Source: a virus (taxonomy: Duplodnaviria > Heunggongvirae > Uroviricota > Caudoviricetes). From it: a stretch of 27,095 bases of DNA. Position numbers and translations under genes: made by a program. The stretch lies in IMG/VR virus record IMGVR_UViG_2537562194_000033. The stretch is one strand, 5' to 3'. A model generated the notes under the pieces. That model saw nothing but the letters and a program-made list of their open reading frames with translations, had not been told where the DNA came from and made no database searches. The stretch's first letter is position 1; the number at the start of each line of letters is the position of its first letter. Positions 1 to 25,417 of the stretch are shown piece after piece.

Positions 1-501
1 CCGATATGTCTTCCATGCAGTCAGTAACGATGCCTCTTCCTCCGTCGCAATATCCAAATCTACGGCATCCTGAAGTGGCGCAATATGCTCACTGGCCATC
101 TGCATCAGGCTGTTTTTTGTTTCTTCCGCCTTCCGGATCCGGAACAGTTTTTCTGCTTCTGCATCTTTCACCCAGGCTGTGCCGTTCCACTTCTGAAACT
201 CCCCTTCCGGGGATAACCAGGTGACATTTTCCGGTAATGGGCCAAGTTCAGAAATAAATAACGCGTCGCCGGAAGCCACGTCATAGACGGTTTTTCCCCG
301 ATGGTCTTCAACGAGATTCCACGATGCCTCATCACTGTTGAAAACGGCCACGAAGCCAGCCGGAATATCTGGCGGGGCAATATCGGTACTGTTTGCAGGC
401 AGACCTGTATGAGGTGGAATGTATGCATCACCTTCACCAATAAACTCATTGGTTCCGGTCAGTAGATTATAAATTTTTATGGTCCGTGATTGTTCACTCA
501 T
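1..501 (-). CDS. tail fibre assembly protein (Tfa/gpG-like), 3' end cut by window edge
   Basis: Minus-strand frame is open from ATG at 501-499 to position 1 (checked every in-frame triplet for stops). Start lies 12 nt downstream of the tail fibre gene stop. Translation begins [20 protein letters not shown] and contains an ...[22 protein letters not shown] segment typical of phage tail fibre assembly chaperones. Absent from the ORF track because it has no stop inside the window. Confidence 0.75.
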
Positions 502-5000: not shown

Positions 5001-5632
5001 CGTACAGCCTCCGCAATCCGGCCCAGCACCGTGTTATAAATCAGGCGCTCATCTGCCTGGCTGATACCCAGCAGCTCACGTACCGGGTAATCGGTGAAAA
5101 TGCCCGGCGCAACCTGATCGCGCTCACCGAACTGATGAACGCGGGCAATACGTGCGGCCACGCCGCTGTAACCCACCGTCACACCGGAAGCATCTGCACG
5201 GGCTTTCAGGTAGCGGGCGGTGCGCAGTTTTACGAACATGGGGACGCGCTTTGTGCTGTCCTGGTTGATGCGCCGGGTGCGTATTTCCAGAAAACGGTCG
5301 ATGTCATCCCGGTAAAACGTGCGGATATTGTTTTTATCCTCATCCCACCCGGTAATGGTTCGCCCGTATTTCCCCGTGTCGTGATGCCAGTTTTTCAGCG
5401 TGCGTGCTTCGTTATTCCAGATAAAGCGAATGCGTTCCTGTATCCGGGTTACGCGGCGTCTGCGTGGTGTCCACGCGGTCCCGTCCGGCGCTTTCTGTGA
5501 CCGGATACGCGCCTGCTGGGCGCGGCGTAAATCCTGTGCCAGCTTTCTGGCGATGTTATTGATGGCCTGCTGATTCAGGCTGTCGCGGATGGCCTCAAAG
5601 GTTTCATCCACGCGGGTGAATGCCTTATCCAT
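4997..5632 (-). CDS. S: virion morphogenesis / tail completion protein gpS-like
   Basis: ATG at 5632 (MDKAFTRV...); the track start at 5641 is a GTG. Conserved QQARIRSQKAPDGTAW, KLRTARYL and VGYSGVAARIARVHQFG blocks fit the P2 S family as recalled. Carries an internal insertion relative to that recollection. Confidence 0.8.
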   Translation of the reverse strand: MDKAFTRVDETFEAIRDSLNQQAINNIARKLAQDLRRAQQARIRSQKAPDGTAWTPRRRRVTRIQERIRFIWNNEARTLKNWHHDTGKYGRTITGWDEDKNNIRTFYRDDIDRFLEIRTRRINQDSTKRVPMFVKLRTARYLKARADASGVTVGYSGVAARIARVHQFGERDQVAPGIFTDYPVRELLGISQADERLIYNTVLGRIAEAVR

Positions 5633-7026: not shown

Positions 7027-7361
7027 TCGTTCTTCTCCTTCACCCTGCGATTAAAGGCCGCAATAACCTTGTCGCGTGCTTTCTCTGCACCCATAAAACC
7101 GATTGATGCGCCGATAAACGTCACGGCATCTTCAGGAAACCCGAAGAAGCGCAACGACCCGGCCACGGCCATGGCAAGAACGCCGCACGCCAGCGATCCC
7201 GTTACGGTCTGAACCAGTGTTCGTCCGTCATAAAGACTCATCAGCGCGGAAATGCTGACCGCCGCGCCTACTGCATACACCGTTGGCAGGTGGTCAAAGA
7301 GCCACGCAATAACCTGCTCTGTGATCCCTGTTTGAATGGTGCTCACTGCTACTTCCCCCAC
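7023..7361 (-). CDS. putative class I holin
   Basis: 112 aa with three hydrophobic segments and a charged C-terminus (EKARDKVIAAFNRRVKEKNE), immediately upstream of the endolysin. The start is a GTG at 7361 and is uncertain. Confidence 0.65.
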   Translation of the reverse strand: MGEVAVSTIQTGITEQVIAWLFDHLPTVYAVGAAVSISALMSLYDGRTLVQTVTGSLACGVLAMAVAGSLRFFGFPEDAVTFIGASIGFMGAEKARDKVIAAFNRRVKEKNE

Positions 7362-7549
7362 AACTGAATCATTTCTCGTTTCTTCTTCTCCGGCTCCGGC
7401 ATCTCAACTTCCTGCCCGGCGTCCAGAAATACCTGCTGACAGAGTCCGGGGTTGGCATCCAGCACCTTTTCGGTGACGCCCTGCGTCGTGCCGTAGTACC
7501 GGAAACAGAGCGAATCCACGGTGTCGCCTTCCAGTGCCTTCACTTTCAT
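7349..7549 (-). CDS. X: tail protein X (LysM-like)
   Basis: Start set to ATG at 7549 (MKVKALEGDTVDSLCFRYYG...LWGK), 66 aa. Close to P2 gpX as recalled. The ATG overlaps the L stop by 1 nt. Confidence 0.85.
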   Translation of the reverse strand: MKVKALEGDTVDSLCFRYYGTTQGVTEKVLDANPGLCQQVFLDAGQEVEMPEPEKKKREMIQLWGK

Positions 7550-8043
7550 CAGCACAACTCCGCAAAGATTCGCGGGCGGCACAGAATGTCAGAGATGGCC
7601 CAGCTCACATCACGCCACAAATCCGATGTCTGTATATCCAGAGCGTCCGCCCGGCGGTCGCCCTTGTCCGTTGTGTCTGCATCACGATAACGCTCCAGAA
7701 TCAGGGCGCGCGTGGCGGTATAAACAGCATTGCGCCAGTGCCAGAGATTGACGCTTTCTCCGTTAATTACAGGGGCCGGAACATCGGCCAGCGTCTGATG
7801 GCCAGCTGCCTGCTGTTCCTGCTGCCATGCTTCCAGCTCGCGGGTAACGTGTGCCACAGCCCCGGTGGCAGTATGCAGCAGGCGGGAGGTGGTCACGCGG
7901 CCCGGCAGTCGTACCGCCAGACGCAGCTCGCGCAGCACAATATCCGGCCAGAATGCACCCGCTGAAATGCGGGTATCGCCATCATCGGTATCGGTGATGT
8001 CGTCCTCTGCGGGTCTGGGTTCAGTTCTGGCAACCATACTCAT
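7549..8043 (-). CDS. L: head completion/stabilisation protein gpL
   Basis: ATG at 8043 with an AGGAG ribosome-binding site 9 nt upstream (the track start at 8052 is a GTG). 164 aa, in the P2 L position. Confidence 0.8.
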   Translation of the reverse strand: MSMVARTEPRPAEDDITDTDDGDTRISAGAFWPDIVLRELRLAVRLPGRVTTSRLLHTATGAVAHVTRELEAWQQEQQAAGHQTLADVPAPVINGESVNLWHWRNAVYTATRALILERYRDADTTDKGDRRADALDIQTSDLWRDVSWAISDILCRPRIFAELC

Positions 8044-8057
8044 GGGGTTCACTCCTG

Positions 8058-8129
8058 AAAAAAATCGGGCGGTGGGTGCGCGGTGTAAACGGTCACGGAG
8101 TCAAACCGGAACACCGCGCACGCCGCCCG
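8058..8129 (-). terminator. long GC-rich inverted repeat plus U-run between M and L (putative attenuator)
   Basis: On the minus strand, CGGGCGGCGTGCGCGGTG ... CACCGCGCACCCACCGCCCG (one mismatch, ~26-nt loop) followed by AUUUUUUU, immediately before the ribosome-binding site of L. Confidence 0.4.
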
Positions 8130-8145
8130 CTGACGGGGTCAGTCG

Positions 8146-8946
8146 TTAACCGCGCTTCGCCTTCTGCGTCGCGGTGGTTTTTCGTGTTGCAGGCTTCCGC
8201 GTTGTCTTTTTACTTTTGCTGCTTTCGTCCTGCGCCTGCTGTGCGCTGGCGTCTTCTGGTTCGGCTGCGGAATCGGCTTTTTTCAGGGCGCGGGAAAGGG
8301 TTGCAATCTCGCGTTTCACACCTGCGTTCGGGTTCAGGTGCATCGCTTCGCGCAGCAGCTTCAGTGATAAGGCCATGTTGTCTGCATCGGTCAGACCACG
8401 ACGGGCAAAGGCGCACGCCTTGCATAATTTGGCGCGCACTTCGTCCGGCATGTCCTGGTCGGTGACAATCTCCCGGAGGGTATCCAGTGGTTCGATAAAG
8501 GCGGATAAATCCGCGTCGGCATCCGTCCCGGCCTGCGTCAGTACCGGGTTGCAGATTTCTTCGGTCAGTACCGTGGCAGCAGTACGGCCAAAGTTATCCG
8601 GCATAATGAGGTTATGACGGACCACATACGCACCAATACGCAGCGCCAGCGGAAGATCGCCGCAGTCAATCGCCCACACCATCAGCGTGGCAATCACTTC
8701 ATCCTGCTGCCCGCCGTCAGCCTCCAGCGTTCCCTCAATCCAGCCGGAAAAGTCCGGCAATAACTCTTTTTTGATGGCGGCTTTCGCGCTTCTGGCCTGT
8801 ACGCCCTTAAGCCGGGCCTGTGCCAGACGCAGACGATACAGCACCTCTTCATGCGCGGTACGCGCGGCGTGGTCCACGCCTTCATTCGCCCGGCCTGCGC
8901 GCTGTGCCATCACGTTCTGCCAGTGTTGCTGTGCAGGAGTAATCAT
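8146..8946 (-). CDS. M: terminase small/endonuclease subunit gpM
   Basis: 266 aa, ATG at 8946 with a GGAGAG ribosome-binding site. Position between capsid N and L fits P2 gpM. Confidence 0.8.
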   Translation of the reverse strand: MITPAQQHWQNVMAQRAGRANEGVDHAARTAHEEVLYRLRLAQARLKGVQARSAKAAIKKELLPDFSGWIEGTLEADGGQQDEVIATLMVWAIDCGDLPLALRIGAYVVRHNLIMPDNFGRTAATVLTEEICNPVLTQAGTDADADLSAFIEPLDTLREIVTDQDMPDEVRAKLCKACAFARRGLTDADNMALSLKLLREAMHLNPNAGVKREIATLSRALKKADSAAEPEDASAQQAQDESSKSKKTTRKPATRKTTATQKAKRG

Positions 8947-8963
8947 TTTTTCTCTCCGTTACA

Positions 8964-8982
8964 GGCGGGCATGATGCCCGCC
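8964..8982 (-). promoter_or_regulatory. GC-rich hairpin between capsid gene N and terminase gene M
   Basis: GGCGGGCAT-G-ATGCCCGCC palindrome, not followed by a T-run. Possibly a transcript-stabilising or processing hairpin. Confidence 0.3.
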
Positions 8983-8991
8983 GTGAGTTGA

Positions 8992-10044
8992 TTAGCTGTC
9001 GGCGAACTTCAGGCCAGTGACCATCGCGCACTTGCCATAGTCTTCAACGACATAAGCGTCATTGATGGACTGGTAGGTGGCGAGGCGGTTGTATTCCGGT
9101 TCGTCTTTCATCAGGCGACGCATTGAACCTTTCTGCCAGTAAATCGACAGGTTGTTGAACGAGGTGATCAGCATCGTTGCATCCGGGAAGAACGGCGCAA
9201 GGAACACGCCCAGCCCGCCAATGGTGCGCGATGACAGGATGAGCTGCCCGGCAAGTAATTCCGCATTGGGATTCTGGCCGCTGATGCTGTTCAGCACGGG
9301 CAGACGCAGCGAGTTAAACAGGTTGCGCCCCATAATCACCACGAGGTCGTCAGCTTCCTTGTGCCATTCATCCAGCAGGGATGAGCGTGCGTCCTGTACC
9401 AGTGCATCAGCGTTCGCATACTTACCCGCGTGCGCCACGGTGTTGTCCATGTTGCGGGAGGTCAGCGTCACGTCATTCATAACGCGCTCGCTGGCGTCGG
9501 TTCTGATGTGCTCCAGCCAGCCCACGTTAACGTCCTGAAGCAGCTTGTTGGTGCTGAAGTTGGACTCATCCGCGTGAGACGTGCCGTTGAAACCGATCAT
9601 GATGCGGTCAAGCGCCACCTGTCGGGCAATCTGTGCGCTGATGCGGGACTGAAAATCAGGATGTGCCGCCCAGGCATCAAGCTGCGGATATGAAATAAAC
9701 GTGTCGTAGTTCACCTGTTCGCACTGGTATTTGCGGTTTTTCAGATCAACCACGTTATTCGGGTTACGGCGTTTTGTGCCGTCATAACTGGTATTCGTGC
9801 GCGCAATCGGTCCTGTGGTATCCAGGAGGATTTTTTCGCCTTTCTGGTCGGTCACGCCGATCACGTTAATTCTTTTTGTAAATTCGGTGCTTTCCTTTGA
9901 GGCGTTTTCAAAACGCTGCTGCACCGAGGGTTCTACGGTAAATCGCGATACCAGCGCAGAAACCGGGATATTATTAAGCGACGCCTGCTGCGCCATATAG
10001 CAACCCAGCTTGTTGCGGGTAATATCTGACATCACCAGATTCAT
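8992..10044 (-). CDS. N: major capsid protein gpN
   Basis: 350 aa with conserved FTVEPSVQQ and C-terminal YVVEDYG blocks, as in the P2 N family as recalled. Confidence 0.9.
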   Translation of the reverse strand: MNLVMSDITRNKLGCYMAQQASLNNIPVSALVSRFTVEPSVQQRFENASKESTEFTKRINVIGVTDQKGEKILLDTTGPIARTNTSYDGTKRRNPNNVVDLKNRKYQCEQVNYDTFISYPQLDAWAAHPDFQSRISAQIARQVALDRIMIGFNGTSHADESNFSTNKLLQDVNVGWLEHIRTDASERVMNDVTLTSRNMDNTVAHAGKYANADALVQDARSSLLDEWHKEADDLVVIMGRNLFNSLRLPVLNSISGQNPNAELLAGQLILSSRTIGGLGVFLAPFFPDATMLITSFNNLSIYWQKGSMRRLMKDEPEYNRLATYQSINDAYVVEDYGKCAMVTGLKFADS

Positions 10045-10067
10045 AAAAAATTTGCTCCTTTGTCTTA

Positions 10068-10904
10068 TCAGAAGTCAGCCAGCTGGTCGGAGGCTGCGCC
10101 CGTTGCGGTGAACCGGTTCTGCGGATCGCCGTCCTGCGTGCGCAGTTTTTCCTTCAGTGCTGTCAGCTCTGTGGTCAGTGACGTAATTTTCTGGCGGTCC
10201 TGCTGATGGCGGGTTTCCAGCACATTAAAACGGTCGATAATGTCGGCCTGTGACGTTGCGACGCCTTCCACCGCTTCCTGAATACGGGAAAAACTGGCGT
10301 CATCCGCTTTGCGGCCACGGCCAATAATCCCCATTACGCGGTTAAACCACTGGGTGCCTTCTTCCTGGCGTTGTTCTGCCATTTCGATGATTTCAGACTC
10401 GATGGCTTCGGAGATAAGCGGCGCTTCACCCTGGACACTGTTGAACGTCATTACCGCCTGACGTTGCTGTGCCGTGAATTTCAGGCGCTCAGTGCCCAGG
10501 CTTGCCGGGGTGTCGGTCATCGCCAGCCCGACCAGATAGGCGCGCCCGTTAACGGAGAACTGCGGGTGCAGTTCGATACTGGAATAGATTTTCTTGCCGT
10601 CCGCGACAAGCTGCTTCATGCGCTCGGTCGGTTCGATTTCTGCATACAGCGCAGTACGTCCGGCCAGCGGACCTTCCGTAATGTCTTCCGTACTCAGTGC
10701 GGTGACATCGCCCATTGCGGAAAATTCGCTTGACGGGCATGGCGAGAGATAGTGCTCAACGTTCACGCGGGCAGCGTAAACATCCGGGTTGAAGTTCTCG
10801 GCGGCTTCACGCAGATGCACCGGACTGATTTCACGGCCATCAACAGTTGATCCGGAGACAGCCACGCGAAACTTTTTGCGGGATGTCTTTTTTTCATTAG
10901 CCAT
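10068..10904 (-). CDS. O: capsid scaffolding protein gpO
   Basis: 278 aa, first gene of the minus-strand late operon, divergent from P. Confidence 0.85.
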   Translation of the reverse strand: MANEKKTSRKKFRVAVSGSTVDGREISPVHLREAAENFNPDVYAARVNVEHYLSPCPSSEFSAMGDVTALSTEDITEGPLAGRTALYAEIEPTERMKQLVADGKKIYSSIELHPQFSVNGRAYLVGLAMTDTPASLGTERLKFTAQQRQAVMTFNSVQGEAPLISEAIESEIIEMAEQRQEEGTQWFNRVMGIIGRGRKADDASFSRIQEAVEGVATSQADIIDRFNVLETRHQQDRQKITSLTTELTALKEKLRTQDGDPQNRFTATGAASDQLADF

Positions 10905-11059
10905 AGTTTTTTGCCCCTCTGACTGGTTCTTCAGTCATGATGGCAAAGCGTAACAGGCTGATACAAAGGGCTTTTGTTGTAAGAAAACGGCCAGAACAGG
11001 GGGTTAAGGAGAACGGTTTCGCGCGCGGGTAATCTTCCTGTAATTACTCAGGGGGAGCA
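10905..11059. promoter_or_regulatory. divergent late promoter region (P-Q operon rightward, O-onward operon leftward)
   Basis: 155-bp gap between divergent O and P. In P2 this region holds the Ogr-activated late promoters. I could not identify an exact TGT-N12-ACA activator site by eye. Confidence 0.4.
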
Positions 11060-12811
11060 ATGATTCAGGACGCTTTTGTGCGCCAGCGTGCGCGGCAACT
11101 TTACTGGCAGGGTTATCCGCCCGCAGAAATATCACGTCTGATGGGAATAAACCCGAACACGATTTATGCGTGGAAAAAACGCGACCAGTGGGATGAAACG
11201 CCACCCGTGCAGCGTGTCACGCAGTCCATCGATGCGCGCCTCATCCAGCTTACTGAAAAACAGAATAAAACAGGCGGTGATTTTAAGGAAATAGACCTGC
11301 TGACCCGGCAGCTTAAAAAGCTGCATGATGGCCATCCGGATGTGATGGCCGCAGGAAAGAAAGGCCGGGCGAAAAAACTCAAAAATCATTTCACGCCGGA
11401 ACAGATTGCCGCACTGCGGGAAAAAATCATCAACAGGCTGGAGTGGCATCAGCGGGGCTGGTTTGACTCCCTGACCCTTTGCAGGGAAGCCGGGATACGT
11501 AACAGGATGATCCTGAAATCCCGACAGATTGGGGCGACCTGGTATTTTGCACAGGAAGCACTGCTGATGGCGCTGCGTGACGATGTGGCGCAACCTTACC
11601 AGCGTAACCAGATTTTTTTGTCTGCGTCGCGTCGTCAGGCGTTCCAGTTTAAAAGCATTATTCAGAAGGCTGCGGCTGAAGTTGATGTGGAGCTGAAAGG
11701 GGGCGATAAAATCATCCTCTCCAATGGCGCAGAGCTGCATTTTCTCGGCACTTCTGCTGCGTCGGCACAGTCCTATACGGGCAATTTTTATTTTGATGAA
11801 TTTTTCTGGGTCAGTCGCTTTGCTGAACTGCGCAAGGTGGCTGGCGCTATGGCAACCCTCAGCGGACTGCGGCGCACCTACTTCTCCACGCCATCCACCG
11901 AAACGCACGAGGCATACGCCTACTGGAACGGCGACCGCTGGAACGAGAAAAAGGCCTTGCATAAACGCCAGCGTTTTTCTGTGGACTGGAAAACGCTGCA
12001 TAACGGGCTTATCTGCCCTGACCGGACGTGGCGGCAAATTGTCACGCTGGAAGATGTGGTTAATCACGGCTGGAAACACACCGATATCGACGAAATTCGT
12101 GATGAAAACACCGAAGACGAGTTCCTCAATCTCTATATGTGTGAGTTTGTCCGCGAAGGGGAATCGGCATTTAACCTGAATATCCTGATTGGCTGCGGTG
12201 TTGACGGATACGACGACTGGAAAGACTGGAAACCTTTTGCTCCCCGCCCGATGGGGAATCGTCCGGTATGGATTGGGTATGACGCAAACGGCAGCAGTGG
12301 CAACGGCGACAGCGGCGCTGTGTCTGTGGTGGTTCCTCCGGCTGTTCCTGGTGGCCGTTTTCGAACGGTGGAGACGCGACGCGTTCAGGGGCTGGAGTTT
12401 GAAGAACAGGCCAGAGTCATTGAAGAGTTCACGTGTCGCTACAACGTGGAACACATCGGCATTGATGTGACGGGCGGGAACGGGGAGGCTGTTTATCAGA
12501 TAGTGAAACGGTTTTTCCCTGCTGCTATTCCGTACACCTTCACGCTGTCATCAAAACGGTCGCTGGTACTGAAAATGCTGCAAATAATGCGTGCCGGGCG
12601 GTGGGAATACGATCGCGCCGAACGCGAGCTGGTCGCGGCCTTTAACGCCGTGCGTAAGGTGAAAACACCGGGCGGCTTTATCACTTACGAAACGGACCGC
12701 GCGAGGGGGATCAGCCACGGCGACCTTGCGTGGGCAACCATGCTTGCTGTCATTAACGAACCAATTGGCGGCGAAGGAGAAAACGAGCGTTTCACGGTTA
12801 TGGAGTTCTGA
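11060..12811 (+). CDS. P: terminase large (ATPase) subunit gpP
   Basis: 583 aa, ATG at 11060 after GGGGGAG. Contains a KSRQIGAT Walker-A-like motif. Size and position fit P2 gpP. Confidence 0.9.
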   Translation: MIQDAFVRQRARQLYWQGYPPAEISRLMGINPNTIYAWKKRDQWDETPPVQRVTQSIDARLIQLTEKQNKTGGDFKEIDLLTRQLKKLHDGHPDVMAAGKKGRAKKLKNHFTPEQIAALREKIINRLEWHQRGWFDSLTLCREAGIRNRMILKSRQIGATWYFAQEALLMALRDDVAQPYQRNQIFLSASRRQAFQFKSIIQKAAAEVDVELKGGDKIILSNGAELHFLGTSAASAQSYTGNFYFDEFFWVSRFAELRKVAGAMATLSGLRRTYFSTPSTETHEAYAYWNGDRWNEKKALHKRQRFSVDWKTLHNGLICPDRTWRQIVTLEDVVNHGWKHTDIDEIRDENTEDEFLNLYMCEFVREGESAFNLNILIGCGVDGYDDWKDWKPFAPRPMGNRPVWIGYDANGSSGNGDSGAVSVVVPPAVPGGRFRTVETRRVQGLEFEEQARVIEEFTCRYNVEHIGIDVTGGNGEAVYQIVKRFFPAAIPYTFTLSSKRSLVLKMLQIMRAGRWEYDRAERELVAAFNAVRKVKTPGGFITYETDRARGISHGDLAWATMLAVINEPIGGEGENERFTVMEF

Positions 12812-13857
12812 TGAGCAGAAAAAATAAAAAAGTGCGCATGAGTTCACGCATTGATCTCGCTGATGCGCTCAGGAAAGAATCGTCGCTCAGTGCATTCACT
12901 TTTGATGGTCCTTATCGCCTGACCGGGCATGATTTGCTGGACAATATGTACTGTGCTGATAACGGGCGGTGGTATGAAACCCCGGTGGACTGGTACGGTC
13001 TGGCAAGAGCCGCCCGGCAAACGTCCTGGCATCAGTCTGCGCTTTACTTTAAGCGCAATGTATTGCTCGGCTGCTATATTCCGCACCCGCTGCTTTCCCG
13101 GCAGGATTTCTCGGCGCTGGCGCTGGACTGGTTTGTGTTCGGTAACGCATTCCTTGAGCTTCGAAGCAATATGCTCGGCGAACCGCTTAAATTACGGCAC
13201 GCCCTGGCGAAATACATGCGACGCGGAAGCGATCTTGAATCATGGTGGTATGTGCAGGATGGCAAGGATGCGTTTCAGTTTCGCCCTGGCAAAGTGTGCC
13301 ACCTGATGAATCCGGATATTAACCAGGAAATCTACGGCATGCCGGAATATCTTGGCGCATTACTCTCGGCCAGCCTTTCTCATTCGGCGGACATGTTCAG
13401 AAAACTGTATTACGACAACGGATCCCACGCCGGGTGCATCATCTACATCGGTGCAGCGCAGGTAAACCGCGAAAGCATGGACTCCCTGAAAGAAACGTTA
13501 CAGGGTGCGCGTGGTGGTGGTGCATTTAAAAACGTGCTCATTCATGCGCCCAACGGGGGCAAAGAAGGTGTGCAAATTTTGCCGTTCCAGCAGATCACCG
13601 CAAAGGATGAGTTCATGAATGTTAAGGCGGCATCCCGTGATGATGTACTGGCTGCGCACCGCGTTCCGCCGCAACTGATGGGGGCGATGCCGGGTGAAAA
13701 AAGTGCGTTTGGTGATGTGGAGAAGGCCGCGCGGGTTTACGCAATTAACGAGCTGATGCCCGTCATGGAGGCCATGAAGCACATCAATGACTGGCTTGGC
13801 GAAGAGGTGATCCGCTTTAACCCTTACGCACTGTTAGATACCCAGCCCACATCCTGA
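12811..13857 (+). CDS. Q: portal protein gpQ
   Basis: 348 aa, ATG overlapping the P stop (TGATG). Last gene before the cos region, as in P2. Confidence 0.9.
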   Translation: MSRKNKKVRMSSRIDLADALRKESSLSAFTFDGPYRLTGHDLLDNMYCADNGRWYETPVDWYGLARAARQTSWHQSALYFKRNVLLGCYIPHPLLSRQDFSALALDWFVFGNAFLELRSNMLGEPLKLRHALAKYMRRGSDLESWWYVQDGKDAFQFRPGKVCHLMNPDINQEIYGMPEYLGALLSASLSHSADMFRKLYYDNGSHAGCIIYIGAAQVNRESMDSLKETLQGARGGGAFKNVLIHAPNGGKEGVQILPFQQITAKDEFMNVKAASRDDVLAAHRVPPQLMGAMPGEKSAFGDVEKAARVYAINELMPVMEAMKHINDWLGEEVIRFNPYALLDTQPTS

Positions 13858-14311
13858 CGCGCTTCGCTTGTCTGCTGCTTCGCCGGGGCATAAAAAATTT
13901 ATGCCCCGACTCTCCAGCTCCTGTATCAGTCAGATAATTTCACGACGCTTTCCTGCTTATTGCCATCATCGACGGTCAGACTCTTACGCAATCCCACTGC
14001 GCTGACTGCATGTTCTCGCCGCCTCAGTGCGATTTTGACGGCCTTATCTTCCACCCCATCAAATCAAAAGCCCTCACGTATTTTTCACGCTCAGCGTGAG
14101 AAATACGGCCATTCTGTCGTGTCGCTGCGACATCGTTAAGGGAACGCTATTTACCCCCTGAAACGCGGGCTGTTCCCCCGTCACCTGCGCACAGGAAAAA
14201 CGCGTTTTTTGTGCACGCACGGATCCTTGACGGATCCAGCCGCCATGCGGGCCGGAAGGGCAAAAAGTCGTTCAAAAAAATTGTGCAAATTTGTGCACTT
14301 TTGTGCAAAGA
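13858..14311. other. cos / packaging region (position inferred from gene order only)
   Basis: Non-coding stretch between the portal gene and the cargo operon. In P2 the cohesive ends lie just beyond Q. Contains a perfect palindrome GGGGCATAAA-AAA-TTTATGCCCC at 13884-13906 and a GGATCC-N5-GGATCC motif near 14222-14238. The exact cos cut site was not identified. Confidence 0.3.
14209..14307. repeat. TTGTGCA(A/C) direct repeats, three at exact 10-bp spacing plus one upstream
   Basis: TTGTGCA at 14209, 14281, 14291 and 14301, each preceded by a T or A tract. Confidence 0.6.
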
Positions 14312-14336
14312 AATGCCCCTCAAATTGAGGGGCATT
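14312..14336 (-). terminator. putative intrinsic terminator of the cargo operon
   Basis: AATGCCCCTCAA-A-TTGAGGGGCATT inverted repeat starting 14 nt after the protease stop, followed on the minus strand by TCTTTG. Confidence 0.5.
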
Positions 14337-14349
14337 ATGTCTTGAAGGA

Positions 14350-16575
14350 TTACGAACGAATAGGAATTGATGTTTGCGGTTGAATTGGCACGAGCACCTG
14401 ATTATAAGTACGTAAAATTTCGTTATACAGGTCTTGGTGCTTTGATGCCTTAATGGTAATTATAAGAGCATACTTGATTTTTTCTGCCTTATGGCTGGCT
14501 ATGCTTGCACCGGCCTCACGAGCGTTATAATGAATGTCAAATACAGGATTTTTTAGAGTTGAACCTAGCATGTTCTTCGAATTATGTAAGACGGTCTCCC
14601 ATTTGCCCATGTCAGAACGTCGCTCACTTTCAGTTGAATATTTGGCCAGTTCAAAGAATCCCTTGGTTTCAGCATTTTGTTTTCCGTCTTTGATTTTTGA
14701 ATCATTTGGCCGGAATGTCACTTCCAAACCAGCTTTTGTATAGGAAGCTGGGTCTTGTGGATCAGTGGTTGTTGCATAACAGAAAGTTGCCGCTAAGTTT
14801 ATTCTACCTTTCAAGCCACCTTCAGGTATTGGAAGAGAAGCGCGTAAGTATTTTCCTGGTTTCAATTCACCTTGGTAGACGATACGGGCAACACCATCAG
14901 GGCTGACTATAATGTCGTTCAAGTCTTCAGGCAGTTTTCCCCAGCCAACTTCTGTACAAGGATGATCAAGCTGTTTTGACGCATGAATTAACAAAGCTTT
15001 GATTGCTAGTAGGCTCAAATCGTTCCCTAAAATTGCCCGAACACCAACAGCTGCTCGTAAGGCGTAAGGAGAGGCAAAGCTTGTTCCTAGCTGGGGTATG
15101 ATTACAGGCTTCTTACCTTTACCTAAAACATGAAAGTACTCGTCTGTGTCACCACCAAACGCAACTAAATCCGGTTTCATCACGCCAGGACTTCTGCCTG
15201 GCCCAATGGCGCTATATGGTGCTCGTTTCCATTCCGTATCATTAACTGTATCACAAGCACCAACAGCAAGAGCATTAACGCAATCGGCTGGTACTTGAAT
15301 TCTTGCATTACCAGACTTGCGATCCATTTCTCCATTGTTGCCAACAGCAACAGTCATTAATGTTTCACCATCACTTAACAAATCATCAATAACGGAAGTC
15401 CATGCATGAACTTCCGTATCTTCAATTGGTAGGTCTGGACCTAAACTTAGATTGATAAACTGATACTGGCGAGACAACAATACCTCTTCAATAAAGCCCA
15501 AAGTTCGATATAGTTCCAGCGGATCTTCTTGGCAGGTCTTGTTGTCCAAAACTCTTAAGTTATCAATATAAGAGTATGGTCTTTTCGCTTCCGATTTATT
15601 ACTTATTGGTCCAAATAAAAAGGCTGAAGACACAGCTAAACCATGCTCTAAACCGTCTGGATCATCCTCTGCATGATCGTCCAAAACTCTATAGGATTTT
15701 AACCATGGCGATATAGCGTGCTCTGATGGTAAACCACCATCAAGAATCGCAACTTTTATTTCTGAAGATACGGGGCCCTCAGCAGGTAATTTACACTGAG
15801 CTAAAGGACCGTAGTTCCTTTGTATTGGTCTAATCCCACGCAATCTTGGAACCGGTCTTATTACTCGTACAAATGTAAATTTCGCAAGCTTACTAATAGT
15901 AATTCTATCGGCCTGGATTGGCACGAACCATAATGTACCAGCGGTAAAAGCTAATGAAGTATGTACTTTGATGTTCAAATTTGATGCAAACTGAACAAAT
16001 TGTTGCTGAACCAAGTCTTGTTCATTATCTGACAGTAAATGAACACCAACCTCAAAATACGAAGAATCCTGCTCACCAATGGTAATAATACGCTCTTCGG
16101 GTAAATAGGCATCGAACCGTTCTATGCGTGCAAAATCAATCGCTTCGTCAGAAAACTCTTTGAGTCCTGACACCCAATGAGGTAACTCTTTGAAGGATTC
16201 TCTTTTACCAGCAACAAACATTTGTGTCGTAGTTACTTCTGACACAGTAACTTTTCGCTTCCAGCTTTGAGGCGTAATTTTTACCGTCCTGCTGCCAATA
16301 GACGTTAACCCGGTAGACTTAAGCATTTTTGCAGGAAAAAAAGAGCGTGCAATATAGCTTGGATTCAACGTCAACTTAGCCACAGCATAATCATAAGGAC
16401 ATGCCTGACTGGGTAAATCATCAAAATTTTCTATAGTAGATGCAATTTGCGGCAATAAACGTTGTTTCGATTCGTAAAGAGAATAAACCTCAGCTTTTCC
16501 GGGCACTCTTTTAGGACCAGGAATATCGCTGGTTAATAATTCGCCGCGTCCAATCAGAAAATTAGTTTTCGCCAT
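14350..16575 (-). CDS. S8 subtilisin-like serine protease with uncharacterised N- and C-terminal domains (IetS-like?)
   Basis: 741 aa, ATG at 16575 with AGGAG 6 nt upstream. Catalytic motifs in canonical order: D279 (VAILDGG), H311 (LEHGLAV), N413 (VAVGNNGE), S499 (LGTSFASP). Flanked by ~265 aa N-terminal and ~200 aa C-terminal regions with no motif I recognise. AT-rich relative to the phage core. Confidence 0.85.
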   Translation of the reverse strand: MAKTNFLIGRGELLTSDIPGPKRVPGKAEVYSLYESKQRLLPQIASTIENFDDLPSQACPYDYAVAKLTLNPSYIARSFFPAKMLKSTGLTSIGSRTVKITPQSWKRKVTVSEVTTTQMFVAGKRESFKELPHWVSGLKEFSDEAIDFARIERFDAYLPEERIITIGEQDSSYFEVGVHLLSDNEQDLVQQQFVQFASNLNIKVHTSLAFTAGTLWFVPIQADRITISKLAKFTFVRVIRPVPRLRGIRPIQRNYGPLAQCKLPAEGPVSSEIKVAILDGGLPSEHAISPWLKSYRVLDDHAEDDPDGLEHGLAVSSAFLFGPISNKSEAKRPYSYIDNLRVLDNKTCQEDPLELYRTLGFIEEVLLSRQYQFINLSLGPDLPIEDTEVHAWTSVIDDLLSDGETLMTVAVGNNGEMDRKSGNARIQVPADCVNALAVGACDTVNDTEWKRAPYSAIGPGRSPGVMKPDLVAFGGDTDEYFHVLGKGKKPVIIPQLGTSFASPYALRAAVGVRAILGNDLSLLAIKALLIHASKQLDHPCTEVGWGKLPEDLNDIIVSPDGVARIVYQGELKPGKYLRASLPIPEGGLKGRINLAATFCYATTTDPQDPASYTKAGLEVTFRPNDSKIKDGKQNAETKGFFELAKYSTESERRSDMGKWETVLHNSKNMLGSTLKNPVFDIHYNAREAGASIASHKAEKIKYALIITIKASKHQDLYNEILRTYNQVLVPIQPQTSIPIRS

Positions 16576-16598
16576 ACATACTCCTTATCTATGCTGTA

Positions 16599-17720
16599 TT
16601 ACATTTTTTGACTGTATTTTCTAATTGTATCCCTACTGACTCCGGTTAAGTCTGATATGGCATGCTGGGATAATTTAGAATTTCTTTTTAGAGTAACTGC
16701 AATTTCTTTACGTTCATTCCTGTCTAATTCTGATAAACCATCTTTAATGAACGACCCAATCAACTCTTCATCTGAGGAAATACCTAAAGCGACCGAACGT
16801 CGGAATTTGTTGATAGAACGCTCAATATTACTAAAAGATTCATTTTTGAACATAATAGCCAGTAGATCTATCCAACGTGCAAAAATCGCGTAGTCGGGAC
16901 CCGAAAAGCGTTTAATTGCTTCTTTAATACTTTCGCTATCTGGCTTCTCAAAATTGAGCACTAAATCAAAACGTCTCCATAGTGCTGGATCAATCAACTC
17001 AGCGAAGTTAGTTGCAGCAAGTAGCAAACTAGAAGACGGCCATTCGTCAACCTCCTGGAGTATCACGGTAACAAGTCTTTTTAATTCTCCAACATCAGAA
17101 TCATCACTTCTCTTTTTGGCGATTGAATCAATTTCATCTAACAGAAGAACGCACGGCCCTTTCTTCGCAAAATCTAGAGCTGCCCGAAGGTTATTTCCGC
17201 TTTTGCCCAGATAGCTGCTCATTACTGCCGTTAAATCAAGAACGTAAAAAGGAACCCCTAATTTCTGAGCTAACCAGCTTGCCGTAAGTGTTTTACCGAC
17301 ACCCGGAGGGCCAACAAAAATGGCAGAGCGTGTTGGTTGTAAGCCGAGAGTCTTGAGGCGATCGATGTGCTTCCGCTCAAGAATAATTTGATCCAGTGAG
17401 TCTTCTATCTGACTGGACAGTAGAGGTTTGCTCACAATCTTTTCATTTGGTGCTTTAAGCAAGGTAAGCCTTGACTCCTCGTCCACAGGCATGGTTTGAG
17501 GCAGCGCTTGTTTTGGTGCGGTAACCTTACGCAGGCTTTGTGCAGGCTTTTGCGGTTTATTTCGTAGATAAAGATCAAGCTGCTCGGATAGAGCAGGCAT
17601 AGTTTCCCGATATTTACGCACCAAGCGAGCGACATATAACCGAACGTCATCATACTGTTCAGTTATTACCAGTCTAACTAGTTGGGCTAAATCTGACTGA
17701 ATACCACCTAAGTCGCCCAT
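16599..17720 (-). CDS. AAA+ ATPase with C-terminal HTH-like tail (IetA-like?)
   Basis: 373 aa, ATG at 17720 with AAGAGG upstream. Walker A GPPGVGKT (K143), Walker B VLLLDEID, sensor-1 AATN, RR at 249-250. The last ~25 aa (SKLSQHAISDLTGVSRDTIRKY) look like a helix-turn-helix. Stop is 23 nt before the protease start, so the two are an operon. Confidence 0.85.
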   Translation of the reverse strand: MGDLGGIQSDLAQLVRLVITEQYDDVRLYVARLVRKYRETMPALSEQLDLYLRNKPQKPAQSLRKVTAPKQALPQTMPVDEESRLTLLKAPNEKIVSKPLLSSQIEDSLDQIILERKHIDRLKTLGLQPTRSAIFVGPPGVGKTLTASWLAQKLGVPFYVLDLTAVMSSYLGKSGNNLRAALDFAKKGPCVLLLDEIDSIAKKRSDDSDVGELKRLVTVILQEVDEWPSSSLLLAATNFAELIDPALWRRFDLVLNFEKPDSESIKEAIKRFSGPDYAIFARWIDLLAIMFKNESFSNIERSINKFRRSVALGISSDEELIGSFIKDGLSELDRNERKEIAVTLKRNSKLSQHAISDLTGVSRDTIRKYSQKM

Positions 17721-17900
17721 CTTAACTGTAACCTCTTGATTTTAAGTGAATTGAAAAAGCATTTAACTGGACTATTTATAGTATTGCACTTTTTTATCAA
17801 ACAGGGAAGAGGAATACTATATGAAATTACAGTGTGCCCCATGGAACGTCCTTACCATGTCTAAACTCTACCTTCATACAATTGATGATTTCTTTCTTGG
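17721..17900 (-). promoter_or_regulatory. AT-rich intergenic region, probable promoter of the cargo operon
   Basis: 180-bp AT-rich spacer between the A stop and the ATPase start. It contains TTGATA and TATAAA hexamers on the minus strand, but their spacing is not canonical, so the promoter is not pinned down. Confidence 0.3.
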
Positions 17901-21341: not shown

Positions 21342-21443
21342 GGTGTGGCCCCTTGTGTAGTAAGTTGTGAAAACTCACCATCCAGAGCTGCGAAACTGTG
21401 GGGGGCGAGACGTACGAGGTTCGCAGTACCGGCTACACAAGAA

Positions 21444-21462
21444 CCCGGCCCGACCGAAGTCG
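21444..21462 (-). ncRNA. UUCG-tetraloop hairpin inside a structured non-coding island
   Basis: On the transcribed (minus) strand, CCGAC-UUCG-GUCGG with flanking GG/CC extension, sitting in a 320-bp non-coding gap (21342-21663) rich in dyad symmetry. Confidence 0.35.
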
Positions 21463-21530
21463 GCCCCGTACGCCCCGCCATAATTCTGACGCGAAAAAAA
21501 CGTGGCAATACAGTACGCACAAAAAAACCG

Positions 21531-21551
21531 CTGGCGCGGTTGTGCGCTTGT
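21531..21551 (-). terminator. putative intrinsic terminator/attenuator within the early operon
   Basis: On the minus strand, ACCGC-GCCA-GCGGT followed by a 7-U run (the A run at 21531-21537 on the plus strand). The stem is short. Confidence 0.35.
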
Positions 21552-21663
21552 GTAGTCAGCAGGCTGCGAAACCCGGCACCCGTTTTGTGAGGTGCAGCGG
21601 AAATGTAACCTGACTGATTGCGGCATGGCAAGCGGTTTTTTTGTGTGTGCATGTTCTGGTTTC

Positions 21664-24203: not shown

Positions 24204-24530
24204 ATGACTAAAAATACTCGTTTTTCCCCCGAAGTCCGTCAGCGGGCGATTCGTATGGTTCTGGAAAGTCAGGATGAATATGACTCACAGTGGGCGGCAA
24301 TTTGTTCCATTGCCCCAAAGATTGGCTGTACGCCGGAGACTCTGCGTGTCTGGGTTCGCCAGCATGAGCGGGATACCGGGGGCGGTGATGGTGGGCTCAC
24401 CAGCGCTGAACGTCAGCGTCTGAAAGAGCTGGAACGTGAAAATCGTGAACTGCGCCGCAGTAACGATATCCTTCGCCAGGCTTCCGCTTATTTTGCGAAG
24501 GCGGAGTTCGACCGCCTCTGGAAAAAATGA
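24204..24530 (+). CDS. IS3-family transposase OrfA (HTH and leucine-zipper part)
   Basis: 108 aa. The -1 frame relationship to orfB at the A6 run (24522-24527) fits the programmed frameshift typical of IS3-family elements. Confidence 0.9.
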
Positions 24531-25417
24531 TGCCACTGCTGGATAAGCTGCGTGAGCAGTACGGGGTCGGACCGGTATGCAGCGAACTGCATATTGCCCC
24601 GTCAACGTATTACCATTGTCAGCAACAGCGACATCATCCGGATAAACGCAGTGCCCGTGCGCAGCACGACGACTGGCTGAAGAGAGAGATACAGCGCGTA
24701 TACGATGAAAATCATCAGGTGTACGGTGTGCGTAAAGTCTGGCGTCAGTTGTTACGGGAAGGAATCAGGGTGGCCAGATGTACAGTGGCACGTCTCATGG
24801 CGGTTATGGGACTTGCCGGTGTTCTCCGGGGTAAAAAGGTCCGTACGACCATCAGCCGGAAAGCCGTTGCCGCAGGCGACCGCGTAAACCGTCAGTTCGT
24901 GGCAGAACGACCTGACCAGCTGTGGGTGGCTGATTTTACTTACGTCAGCACATGGCAGGGCTTCGTCTATGTGGCGTTTATCATTGATGTGTTTGCCGGA
25001 TACATCGTGGGGTGGCGGGTCTCATCGTCTATGGAAACGACATTCGTGCTGGATGCGCTGGAGCAGGCGTTGTGGGCCCGTCGTCCGTCTGGCACCATCC
25101 ATCACAGCGATAAAGGCTCTCAGTATGTGTCACTGGCCTATACGGAGCGACTAAAAGAAGCCGGATTACTGGCATCAACAGGGAGTACAGGCGACTCGTA
25201 TGACAACGCGATGGCTGAGAGCATCAATGGTCTTTACAAAGCGGAGGTAATACACCGTAAGAGCTGGAAAAACCGTGCAGAAGTGGAACTGGCCACACTA
25301 ACGTGGGTGGACTGGTATAACAATCGACGATTGCTGGGAAGGCTGGGCCATACTCCTCCGGCAGAAGCAGAAAAAGCTTATTATGCTTCCATCGGAAACG
25401 ATGATCTGGCAGCCTGA
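24527..25417 (+). CDS. IS3-family transposase OrfB (DDE catalytic domain)
   Basis: 296 aa with an rve-type integrase core (WVADFTYV...HSDKGSQY...[14 protein letters not shown]). Confidence 0.9.

What the first reader, a model, noticed from the sequence alone, without database searches (positions are those of the whole stretch)
8058..8129. Terminator-like long inverted repeat between terminase gene M and head gene L
An 18-20-bp GC-rich inverted repeat with one mismatch, followed by a 7-U run on the transcribed strand, sits immediately upstream of the L ribosome-binding site. It could act as a partial terminator setting relative expression of upstream capsid genes and downstream genes, or as an RNA processing site.
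Basis: seen in the sequence. Interest (0 to 1): 0.35.

Follow-up and report, generated by a model that had tools for sequence, protein, structure and literature searches.

The report
Conserved M–L hairpin of P2-like phages
The terminator-like hairpin between the small-terminase and head-completion genes is real, but it is one copy of a two-hairpin RNA element, not in Rfam 15, that nearly all sampled P2-like phages keep at this spot, most of them without the U-run, so termination alone cannot explain it.

Summary
On the transcribed (minus) strand, 8066-8129 forms a -42 kcal/mol hairpin followed by A+U7 and the L ribosome-binding site. It is the most stable 80-nt fold in the window.

The window is a P88-like (P2-family) E. 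coli prophage. The hairpin is single-copy per phage, not a dispersed repeat.

Comparison changes the reading. P2, 186, about 60 enterobacterial species, and Aeromonas, Pseudomonas, Ralstonia/Burkholderia and Pasteurellaceae relatives have a roughly 100-nt M-L spacer with the same design:
- a small C-loop hairpin;
- a long hairpin with a GGCGG/CCGCC base;
- one unpaired C facing an invariant YCA bulge;
- a covarying upper stem (14 of 17 pairs show compensatory changes; 47 G·U against 11 A·C favours the sense strand).

Rfam 15 has no matching family, and database records annotate nothing there, apart from depositor-called terminator/promoter features in Mannheimia PHL101.

A U-run of five or more occurs only in this clade and a few enteric relatives, and is absent from non-enteric relatives. 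All downstream late genes need read-through.

Best reading: an old, specifically recognised mRNA element that in this lineage also acts as a leaky terminator and 3' stabiliser. This function is inferred, not tested. Rivals are endonuclease (RNase P-like) processing, control of L translation, a put-like antiterminator, and a single-stranded DNA signal.

The parts
8146..8148 (-). Stop codon (UAA) of gene M, the small terminase subunit. The element starts right after it.
   Evidence: ORF 8146-8946 matches PF05944. Sequence.
8130..8142 (-). HP1: a small hairpin, CUGAC-CCC-GUCAG, with a 5-bp stem and a C-rich loop.
   Evidence: All 4 modelled pairs show compensatory changes across relatives. The loop Cs are kept in 58-61 of 62 aligned rows. 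U·G is the commonest pair at one position, which marks the sense strand. Folded alone it gives -3.9 kcal/mol.
8123..8129 (-). HP2 lower stem, 5' arm: CGGGCGG. The GGCGG core is almost invariant.
   Evidence: Pairs are 100% kept. The outermost pair covaries (GC/AU/UA/CG), and inner pairs are compensated in Pseudomonas (GCCGG/CCGGC) and Mannheimia (GGGG/CCCC) phages.
8122..8122 (-). Invariant unpaired C on the 5' side of the internal loop.
   Evidence: C in all 62 rows of alignment A4.
8111..8121 (-). HP2 upper stem, 5' arm: GUGCGCGGUGU (11 nt).
   Evidence: All 7 modelled pairs show compensatory changes, and 98.4% of cells are paired.
8087..8110 (-). Variable apical segment (24 nt), which can form its own 5-bp mini-hairpin.
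   Evidence: The minimum-energy structure shows the mini-hairpin. Sequence and length vary among relatives. No antisense target of 12 nt or more was found in the phage.
8076..8086 (-). HP2 upper stem, 3' arm: ACACCGCGCAC.
   Evidence: It pairs with 8111-8121. Covariation evidence is the same as for the 5' arm.
8073..8075 (-). Invariant 3-nt bulge CCA (YCA across the family).
   Evidence: C in 53 rows and U in 9 at the first position; C in 62 of 62 at the second; A in 62 of 62 at the third. The bulge is also present in 95 of 122 unique non-enteric spacers under a strict pattern.
8066..8072 (-). HP2 lower stem, 3' arm: CCGCCCG.
   Evidence: It pairs with 8123-8129.
8058..8065 (-). A followed by U7, immediately 3' of the stem. 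This is the terminator-like tail and is specific to this lineage.
   Evidence: Sequence. In 83 P88-like copies the run is U7 in 41, U6 in 32, U8 in 8 and U5 in 1. The run is absent or weak in most other lineages.
8041..8056 (-). Shine-Dalgarno AGGAG (8056-8052), an 8-nt spacer, and the ATG (8043-8041) of gene L (head completion protein).
   Evidence: Sequence and translation. PF05926 match.
8052..8147 (-). Full extent of the conserved element as matched by covariance model R1.
   Evidence: It scores 67.1 bits (E = 1e-20) and is the only significant match in the window.

Best explanation
The hairpin belongs to a roughly 95-nt two-hairpin structure in the sense-strand late mRNA. P2-family phages (Peduoviridae) keep it between the small-terminase gene M and the head-completion gene L. 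Its covarying stems, together with a few invariant unpaired bases (one C facing a YCA bulge, and a CCC loop), indicate an old element that is recognised specifically by some conserved factor. That factor is unknown.

In the P88-like lineage of this window, the GC-rich base of the long hairpin is followed directly by A+U5-8. I therefore infer that it also works here as a leaky intrinsic terminator. Under this model, a fraction of polymerases coming from the late promoter release after M. They leave an O-N-M (scaffold, capsid, small terminase) message that ends in a -42 kcal/mol hairpin resistant to 3' exonucleases. The remaining polymerases read through to express L, the lysis genes and the tail genes. 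The result would be more head-gene message than downstream message.

Shown: the structure, its conservation, its strand, its single-copy status, and the need for read-through. Inferred: the termination, the stabilisation and the recognition factor.
For: Structure and significance: (z = -5; the most stable fold in 27 kb).

Conservation and covariation:
- 39 non-redundant enterobacterial spacers: 8 of 13 RNAalifold pairs are compensated. 93% of cells are paired, and the covariation score is 0.456 against 0.10 or less for slid controls.
- 62 aligned rows including non-enteric phages: 96.7% paired, 14 of 17 pairs compensated, covariation 0.55 against 0.08 or less.

Sense strand: 47 G·U against 11 A·C.

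Single copy:
- One significant covariance-model hit in the window and one in the whole P2 genome.
- One junction hit in each of 61 of 65 representative loci.
- 1,210 places in 1,081 E. coli genomes, median 1 per genome.

Terminator anatomy in this clade:
- A+U7 abuts a 7-bp GC stem.
- The U-run is 5-8 in 82 of 83 copies.
- The diverged B771/CM2 copies keep U7-U9 while their stem pairs changed in a compensatory way, with G·U pairs in CM2.

Read-through is needed:
- In P88, genes L through G are contiguous on one strand.
- P2's curated record places L in the O operon.
- No sigma-70-like site or TGT-N12-ACA box lies before L.
Against: - No transcript data were available, so termination efficiency is unknown.
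- The hairpin is 64 nt long with an internal loop and a 24-nt top. That is much longer than the 19-37-bp terminator and attenuator features annotated in P2.
- Most relatives lack a U-tract adjacent to the stem, so termination is not the ancestral function.
- M, which is presumably needed only in small amounts (my inference), lies upstream of the hairpin together with the abundant capsid genes. This fits poorly with a pure stoichiometry device.
- The U-run could instead be an A/U-rich translation enhancer or an RNase E site placed just before the L ribosome-binding site.
- The invariant C/YCA loop and HP1 are not explained by termination or stabilisation.
Confidence: 0.45

Rival explanations
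1. Endonucleolytic processing site. A conserved host nuclease recognises the hairpin through the invariant C/YCA loop and cuts the polycistronic late mRNA at the M/L junction. The upstream message would end in HP1/HP2 and the downstream message would begin at or next to a hairpin, giving the two halves different stabilities. The most specific version is RNase P. The upper stem followed by single-stranded CCA, and in many relatives the whole hairpin followed by ACC, resembles a tRNA acceptor end or the precursor of the phage C4/CI RNAs. RNase III or RNase E are alternatives.
For: - The YCA bulge is invariant: CCA in 53 of 62 rows, with the CA in 62 of 62. The facing C is also invariant.
- The tail consensus after the lower stem is A-C-C/U.
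- Bacterial RNase P pairs with the 3' RCCA of its substrates and is reported to process mRNAs and phage regulatory RNAs (review PMC4919922).
- The C4 RNA of this same prophage closes with GGCGG.../...CGCC followed by a C-rich tail.
- The element is conserved across hosts that share these nucleases.
- An AU-rich single strand right after a stable hairpin, as here, is a typical RNase E context (own knowledge).
Against: - The first base of the upper stem is mostly A (36 of 62 rows), whereas most tRNAs start with G at +1 (own knowledge); the base before it is C, whereas RNase P prefers U at -1.
- There is no unpaired discriminator base before CCA; the flanking pair covaries and is never broken.
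- ARAGORN finds no tRNA-like gene and no Rfam family matches.
- The very GC-rich stems may make poor RNase III substrates (own knowledge).
- There are no cleavage data.
Confidence: 0.2
2. Translational control element for L. The structure, whose 3' end lies 9 nt upstream of the L Shine-Dalgarno sequence, is an operator for a phage or host RNA-binding protein, or a ribosome standby platform. The U-run is an S1-binding translation enhancer rather than a terminator tail.
For: - The position relative to the L start is constant: the hairpin ends 14-36 nt before the ATG in the relatives checked.
- A U-rich stretch directly abuts the Shine-Dalgarno sequence in enteric phages.
- Invariant bulged bases are typical of protein operators (own knowledge).
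- In 186, a small extra hairpin sequesters the Shine-Dalgarno sequence.
Against: - The Shine-Dalgarno sequence and start codon are not part of the conserved pairing.
- Occlusion of the Shine-Dalgarno sequence is not conserved among the spacers folded: in 186 a small hairpin covers it, while in P2 it sits in the unpaired loop of a short helix.
- HP1 lies next to the M stop codon, about 85 nt from the L Shine-Dalgarno sequence.
- No candidate binding protein was identified.
Confidence: 0.1
3. Put-like cis-acting antiterminator. The nascent two-hairpin RNA binds the transcribing RNA polymerase, as HK022 put RNA does, and makes it resistant to pauses and terminators across the roughly 8 kb of late genes downstream.
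For: - The element has two stem-loops of about 85 nt with invariant unpaired bases.
- It is conserved in hosts from gamma- and beta-proteobacteria.
- It is followed by a long run of late genes. P2 annotates a putative attenuator further down the same operon.
- HK022 put RNAs are about 70 nt, have two stem-loops, need no protein, and act over 10 kb or more (PMC9378689).
Against: - I did not compare its sequence with put directly.
- It lies mid-operon rather than near the promoter.
- In this lineage the element is itself followed by a U-run, which would make it a terminator rather than an antiterminator.
- No antitermination step is known in P2 late transcription (own knowledge).
Confidence: 0.07
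4. Single-stranded DNA signal. The same-polarity DNA strand, displaced during P2-type rolling-circle replication, folds into these hairpins. They serve as a lagging-strand start site or helicase loading site, like the intergenic complementary-strand origins of phiX174 and G4.
For: - The replication-initiator gene and the late operon are on the same strand in P2 and P88, and P2's record lists the ori nick feature on the + strand. If the nick is in that strand, the displaced strand has mRNA polarity, so the G·T bias would be compatible.
- The element is single-copy per genome.
- P2 gene B is annotated as required for lagging-strand synthesis.
Against: - No such site is known for P2 (own knowledge).
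- The fixed spacing between a stop codon and a ribosome-binding site fits an mRNA element better.
- Priming by DnaB/DnaG on a rolling circle needs no specific site (own knowledge).
Confidence: 0.05
5. An ordinary feature with no special role: a chance GC-rich palindrome, a dispersed REP-like repeat, or a full operon-end terminator.
For: GC-rich coding DNA gives many weak hairpins. The tool's terminator-like count for the window is no higher than in shuffled sequence.
Against: - It is the most stable fold in the window.
- Compensatory covariation is seen across about 60 species.
- It is single-copy and carried by the prophage.
- Essential genes lie downstream.
Confidence: 0.02

Closest known systems
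Intrinsic (Rho-independent) terminators and attenuators inside phage operons, such as the putative attenuator annotated before gene R in the P2 O operon
   Same: It has a GC-rich hairpin whose base is followed within 1 nt by seven U on the transcribed strand. It lies inside a polycistronic late operon, where only partial termination is tolerable.
   Different: - The hairpin is 64 nt with a 1x3 internal loop and a 24-nt top, against the 19-37-bp terminator and attenuator features annotated in P2.
- It carries invariant unpaired bases and a second upstream hairpin.
- The structure is conserved in relatives that have no U-tract.
Intercistronic mRNA stabiliser hairpins, such as the REP sequences between malE and malF (own knowledge)
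   Same: A very stable hairpin sits between an abundantly needed upstream gene block and downstream genes needed in smaller amounts. It could block 3' exonucleases.
   Different: REP elements are dispersed in hundreds of copies and are defined by sequence family. This element is single-copy, specific to the phage family, and has its own invariant motif.
RNase P-processed phage RNAs (C4 RNA of P1/P7, CI RNA of P4; Rfam RF01695) and tRNA acceptor ends
   Same: A GC-rich closing helix (GGCGG/CCGCC) sits next to a single-stranded CCA or ACC. A C4 RNA is encoded in this same prophage. RNase P uses the RCCA motif.
   Different: - It does not match the RF01695 model.
- The CCA lies in an internal bulge, not at a 3' flank.
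- It has A at +1 and C at -1.
- There is no evidence of cleavage.
HK022 put antiterminator RNAs
   Same: It is a two-stem-loop nascent RNA of similar size in a phage operon, with conserved unpaired bases. It could act without a phage protein.
   Different: I did not compare its sequence with put directly; the position is different (mid-operon), and here it is followed by a U-run.

Membership tests
Intrinsic (Rho-independent) terminator | GC-rich stem immediately followed (0-2 nt) by a U-rich tract on the transcribed strand | tested here: met
   A 7-bp CGGGCGG/CCGCCCG stem base is followed by A+U7.
Intrinsic (Rho-independent) terminator | Compact hairpin (stem about 5-14 bp, loop 3-8 nt) | tested here: not met
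   The hairpin is 64 nt: 7 + 11 bp split by a 1x3 internal loop, with a 24-nt apical segment. The tool's terminator scan, which allows loops of 3-8 nt, does not call it.
Intrinsic (Rho-independent) terminator | U-tract conserved with the hairpin in homologous positions | tested here: not met
   A U-run of 5 or more occurs in the P88/B771 clade and a few enteric lineages. It is absent in 186 and in Aeromonas, Ralstonia, Pseudomonas and Mannheimia phages, which all keep the hairpin.
Intrinsic (Rho-independent) terminator | Measured release of transcripts at the site | not testable with these tools
   No transcriptome or in vitro data were available.
Any curated RNA family (Rfam 15) | Match to a covariance model at or near its gathering score | tested here: not met
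   No hit at gathering thresholds over the whole window. In E-value mode on 7950-8250 there were only chance-level hits, the best being a microRNA model at 22 bits against a gathering score of 100.
Dispersed bacterial palindromes (REP/BIME-like) | Many copies per host genome in unrelated intergenic sites | tested here: not met
   There are 1,210 places in 1,081 of 5,426 E. coli genomes, with median 1 and maximum 3 per genome. The two places inspected lie between gpM and the head-completion gene.
RNase P substrate of the tRNA-acceptor / C4 type | Helix followed by a single-stranded (R)CCA | tested here: inconclusive
   The invariant YCA bulge is CCA in 53 of 62 rows and directly follows the upper stem. 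An ACC/ACU tail follows the lower stem in many lineages, but not in the window.
RNase P substrate of the tRNA-acceptor / C4 type | tRNA-like features: G at +1, U at -1, T-loop, or detection as tRNA/tmRNA | tested here: not met
   The +1 base is A in 36 of 62 rows and the -1 base is C in 62 of 62. ARAGORN finds nothing.
RNase P substrate of the tRNA-acceptor / C4 type | Cleavage by RNase P in vivo or in vitro | not testable with these tools
   This needs rnpA-ts hosts or an M1 RNA assay.
HK022 put-type antiterminator RNA | Two stem-loops of about 70 nt that act in cis on RNA polymerase, with sequence relation to putL/putR | tested here: inconclusive
   The two-hairpin architecture is present. 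No put sequence was compared directly, and activity is not testable here. The description of put comes from PMC9378689.
Conserved structured cis-RNA of Peduoviridae (proposed here) | HP1 with a C-rich loop, plus HP2 with a GC lower stem, an unpaired C, a covarying upper stem and a YCA bulge, lying between the M stop and the L start, one per genome | tested here: met
   The window matches model R1 at 67.1 bits, and this is its only significant hit. The same architecture is found in 61 of 65 representative loci.

The most novel reading that the evidence does not exclude
The M-L spacer of P2-family phages encodes a previously uncatalogued, family-wide functional RNA. Its invariant C/YCA internal loop and C-loop hairpin would be read by conserved host machinery. 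One version is RNase P-type cleavage at a tRNA-acceptor mimic inside a late mRNA. Another is direct binding to RNA polymerase in the manner of put RNA. Either way, the element would control expression of all late genes downstream of the head genes.
Probability: 0.25. Interest if true: 0.75.

Novelty: new variant of a known kind. Interest (0 to 1): 0.55.

Why it matters
P2 is a classical model phage, and P2-like prophages are common. This one element occurs in about a fifth of complete E. coli genomes.

A structured non-coding element with invariant unpaired bases sits in the middle of the main late operon. It persists across enteric, Aeromonas, Pseudomonas, Burkholderiales and Pasteurellaceae phages, even though the flanking proteins have diverged to about 30-40% identity (L-protein identities). 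This points to a regulatory step in late gene expression that I found no account of: it is absent from Rfam 15, from P2's curated annotation, and from the papers I could search.

If it sets the ratio of head-gene message to downstream message, or is a nuclease or polymerase recognition site, it would give:
- a directly testable handle on how these phages balance capsid, lysis and tail production;
- a new family for RNA annotation of prophages;
- a compact part for tuning synthetic operons.

If the function is only a leaky terminator, the finding is ordinary for this window. It would still correct how the site should be annotated across the family.

Tried and rejected
- **Dispersed repeat (REP-like):** rejected. 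The element is single-copy and prophage-borne.
- **Known RNA family:** none matches.
- **tRNA or tmRNA:** none found.
- **Promoter for L in the spacer:** there is no sigma-70-like site on the minus strand near 8050-8250. No TGT-N12-ACA activator box lies nearer than 14115.
- **Trans-acting antisense RNA from the variable apical loop:** the longest complement elsewhere in the window is 11 nt, with about 0.5 expected by chance. P2 gives a similar result.
- **Antisense-strand function:** disfavoured by 47 G·U against 11 A·C pairs, and by U·G being the commonest pair in HP1.
- **RfaH ops element or Chi-like site:** the motif contains GGCGG, and its complement contains GGCGGTGG. By inspection, the ops positions T6, A7 and G8 are not kept, and Chi differs at two positions. 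This rests on my own knowledge of the consensus sequences; no tool was run.
- **Pseudoknot between the CCCC loop and the Shine-Dalgarno sequence or apical G-runs:** by inspection, no conserved complement was found.
- **Nucleotide identity of the spacer against its coding flanks:** uninformative, because short global alignments all score 55-78%.
- **The repeat finder:** missed the dyad because of the indel in the stem.
- **Literature:** searches of the held library found no description of the M-L hairpin. The original P2 sequence paper (Linderoth et al. 1991, PMC332578) and the C4/RNase P paper (PMC41593) are not held, so an early mention of the dyad cannot be excluded.

Full report
**1. What is in the window**

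The genes around the finding lie on the minus strand.
- ORF 8146-8946 matches PF05944 (phage small terminase, P2 gene M).
- ORF 7549-8043 matches PF05926 (head completion protein, P2 gene L).
- Upstream are the capsid gene (8992-10044) and the scaffold gene (10068-10904).
- The large terminase and portal genes are on the plus strand.

The M-L stretch is 96-99% identical to 16 phage records of the P88 group (Xuanwuvirus, Peduoviridae), all annotated 'terminase small subunit | head-tail adaptor'. The window is therefore a P88-like, P2-family prophage of E. coli.

**2. The observation**

Read on the minus strand, the 102-nt spacer is:

UAA-CGA-[CUGAC CCC GUCAG]-[CGGGCGG C GUGCGCGGUGU - 24 nt - ACACCGCGCAC CCA CCGCCCG]-A-UUUUUUU-C-AGGAG-UGAACCCC-AUG

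The 'one mismatch' is really an asymmetric internal loop, with one C facing CCA, between a 7-bp lower stem and an 11-bp upper stem.

The structure is well beyond chance.
- The spacer folds at -50.6 kcal/mol, z = -5.05 against dinucleotide shuffles.
- The long hairpin alone folds at -42.2 kcal/mol.
- The 80-nt window 8066-8145 is the most stable of all 10,808 windows on both strands of the 27 kb. The C4 RNA gene ranks fourth.

**3. It is not a dispersed repeat**

The 88-nt element occurs at 1,210 places in 1,081 of 5,426 complete E. coli genomes. The median is one per genome and the maximum is three, and nothing is annotated under any listed match. In the 16 phage records it is 98-100% identical and also unannotated.

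**4. Diverged copies and compensatory change**

Two E. coli prophages (B771 and CM2) carry a copy about 76% identical, between gpM and the head-completion gene. In these copies:
- upper-stem pairs G-C and C-G have swapped to C-G and G-C;
- the two outermost lower-stem pairs, C-G and G-C, have become A-U;
- CM2 has G·U pairs that would be C·A mismatches on the other strand;
- the U-run is retained as U7-U9.

**5. P2 and 186**

The reference phages have the same design in their 99-nt and 92-nt M-L spacers: a small hairpin with a CCC loop, then GGGCGG-C-[stem]...[stem]-CCA-CCGCCC.
- P2 follows the hairpin with GACUUUUCAG.
- 186 follows it with AACCUGAUGAGG, which has no U-tract.
- P2's curated record annotates several terminators and an attenuator elsewhere, but nothing at this site. 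It lists L as part of the O operon.

**6. Breadth in Enterobacterales**

A scan of one genome per species with an L-protein alignment returned 80 loci from about 60 species. L identity ranged from 39% to 100%. Of the 80 loci, 78 had a detectable M ORF; one of the other two had almost no upstream flank. All 78, plus the other locus without a detected M ORF (L182), show the same spacer. Overall, the motif GGCGGC...CACCGCC is present in 239 of 245 loci held at that point. Five of the six exceptions have little or no upstream flank, and the sixth is the CM2 variant.

For an alignment of 39 non-redundant spacers (A3):
- RNAalifold predicts 13 pairs, 8 of them with double compensatory changes.
- For my 17-pair structure, 93.3% of cells are paired. 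The covariation score is 0.456, against 0.14 in column shuffles and 0.10 or less when partners are slid.

**7. Beyond the enterics**

The spacer is 95-111 nt in Aeromonas LPM4, Ralstonia RsoM1USA, Pseudomonas Dobby, Mannheimia PHL101 and Vibrio VPUSM8. The first four fold into the same hairpin with the unpaired C and the CCA bulge. Even the otherwise invariant lower stem is compensated: GCCGG/CCGGC in Dobby and GGGG/CCCC in PHL101. None of the four has a U-tract. The PHL101 depositors had annotated a 'terminator' and a 'promoter' in the spacer.

Three further scans added 165 loci. Of 122 unique upstream segments, 95 satisfy a strict X5-C-stem-YCA-X5' pattern, and most of the rest have it in looser form.

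A covariance model built only from enteric sequences (R1) gave these results:
- It finds exactly one significant site in the window (8052-8147, 67 bits) and one in the whole P2 genome.
- It finds one junction hit in each of 61 of 65 representative loci. The Vibrio locus and three divergent loci are missed.
- On the resulting alignment (A4, 62 rows, fitted to the model and so leaning towards it), 96.7% of cells are paired and 14 of 17 pairs have double changes. Covariation is 0.55 against 0.08 or less for slid controls.

The invariant unpaired bases are:
- the C (62 of 62 rows);
- the bulge Y (53 C, 9 U), C (62 of 62) and A (62 of 62);
- the HP1 loop Cs (58-61 of 62).

G·U/U·G pairs outnumber A·C/C·A pairs by 47 to 11, and U·G is the commonest pair at one HP1 position. 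The structure therefore belongs to the sense strand.

**8. The U-tract**

After the lower stem the family consensus is A-C-C/U followed by a few U. A U-run of five or more occurs in the P88/B771 clade and a few enteric lineages. It is absent from the non-enteric groups. Within 83 P88-like copies the run is U7 (41), U6 (32), U8 (8) or U5 (1). Terminator anatomy is therefore a stable feature of this clade, but it was added to an older element.

**9. Read-through is obligatory**

In P88, the genes L, X, holin, endolysin, R, S, V, W, J, I, H and G follow on the same strand with almost no gaps. No sigma-70-like site or TGT-N12-ACA box precedes L. A full terminator here would be lethal to the phage.

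**10. Mechanism**

I commit, at about 0.45, to the following. The element is a specifically recognised structure in the late mRNA. In this lineage it additionally acts as a leaky intrinsic terminator and 3' stabiliser for the O-N-M message. The structure, strand, conservation and need for read-through are shown. Termination and stabilisation are inferred from anatomy alone.

The invariant loop and HP1 are not explained by this model. The rivals, with my estimates, are:
- **Endonucleolytic processing (0.2).** The CCA bulge and ACC tail recall the RCCA determinant of RNase P and the closing stem of the C4 RNA encoded in this same prophage. However, the +1 A, the -1 C and the missing discriminator base argue against a close tRNA mimic.
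- **Control of L translation (0.1).**
- **A put-like antiterminator (0.07).**
- **A single-stranded DNA initiation signal (0.05).** This is compatible with the strand bias only if the ori nick is in the late-mRNA strand; the replication gene and the late operon share a strand.
- **Chance, REP-like repeat or full terminator.** Excluded.

**11. Novelty and verdict**

The site is a real, strongly conserved structured element. It is not in Rfam 15. Apart from the depositor-called terminator and promoter in the PHL101 record, it is unannotated in the RefSeq and GenBank records I examined. I found no description in the searchable literature, although the 1991 P2 sequence paper could not be read.

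As a kind of element (an intercistronic mRNA hairpin, terminator or processing site) it is known. As a family, with its C/YCA signature, it appears undescribed. Interest is 0.55.

Noticed in passing
window 21398-21485 (-) and 21521-21595 (-): Rfam calls a C4 antisense RNA (RF01695, 77 bits) and an adjacent isrK Hfq-binding RNA (RF01394, 64 bits). This P2-like prophage therefore carries a P1/P4-type RNA immunity module. The closing stem of the C4 RNA starts with GGCGG and ends with CGCC followed by a C-rich tail.
   Followed up: partly
window 14350-17720 (-): Two genes sit next to the non-coding region after the portal gene. I take this to correspond to the P2 old/tin cargo hotspot. They match the IetS (subtilase, 741 aa, E = 1e-51) and IetA (AAA ATPase, 373 aa, E = 1e-77) models of the IetAS anti-phage defence system in PADLOC. 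Pfam matches Peptidase_S8 and AAA agree.
   Followed up: partly
window 13858-14349: This is a non-coding region downstream of the portal gene. It holds three or four copies of TTGTGCA(C/A), overlapping palindromes (14186-14219 and 14268-14311), a perfect 12-nt palindrome AATGCCCCTCAA/TTGAGGGGCATT at 14312-14336, and a TGT-N12-ACA box at 14115-14132. It may be a cos, terminator or regulatory region.
   Followed up: no
window 1-170 (-) and 24485-24601 (+): There are two Rfam hits to insertion-sequence RNAs. One is IS009 (167 bits), cut off by the window end. The other is the ALIL pseudoknot (121 bits), a frameshift element of IS3-family transposases, lying just before and overlapping the start of ORF 24527-25417. 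An insertion sequence therefore lies inside or beside the prophage.
   Followed up: no
window 5451-5530 (+): This is the third most stable 80-nt fold in the window (-46.2 kcal/mol). It lies on the strand antisense to the late tail genes.
   Followed up: no
L285, L286, L312, L319 (about 25 nt before the M stop codon): In Pseudomonas-type P2-like phages, the last codons of M form an extra covarying hairpin that ends at the stop codon. Examples are GCCGGC-ACA-GCCGGC-UAA, ACUGCC-AGC-GGCAGU-UAA and GCCGCC-CCU-GGCGGC-UAA. A conserved single-stranded CCGAGCG follows the stop codon in most beta- and gamma-proteobacterial relatives.
   Followed up: no
L417 (phage P88), locus 7044-18125: In P88-type phages, the genes equivalent to the P2 O and V operons (scaffold through tail-fibre assembly) are contiguous on one strand. 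S and V overlap, and there is only one 138-nt gap, before the R-like tail gene. This suggests a single late transcription unit of about 11 kb.
   Followed up: no
L251 (Vibrio phage VPUSM 8), locus 1055-1162: The K139-type Vibrio phage also has a 106-nt structured M-L spacer, but it is not matched by the model and has no clear C/CCA loop. The element may be replaced or strongly diverged at the edge of the family.
   Followed up: partly
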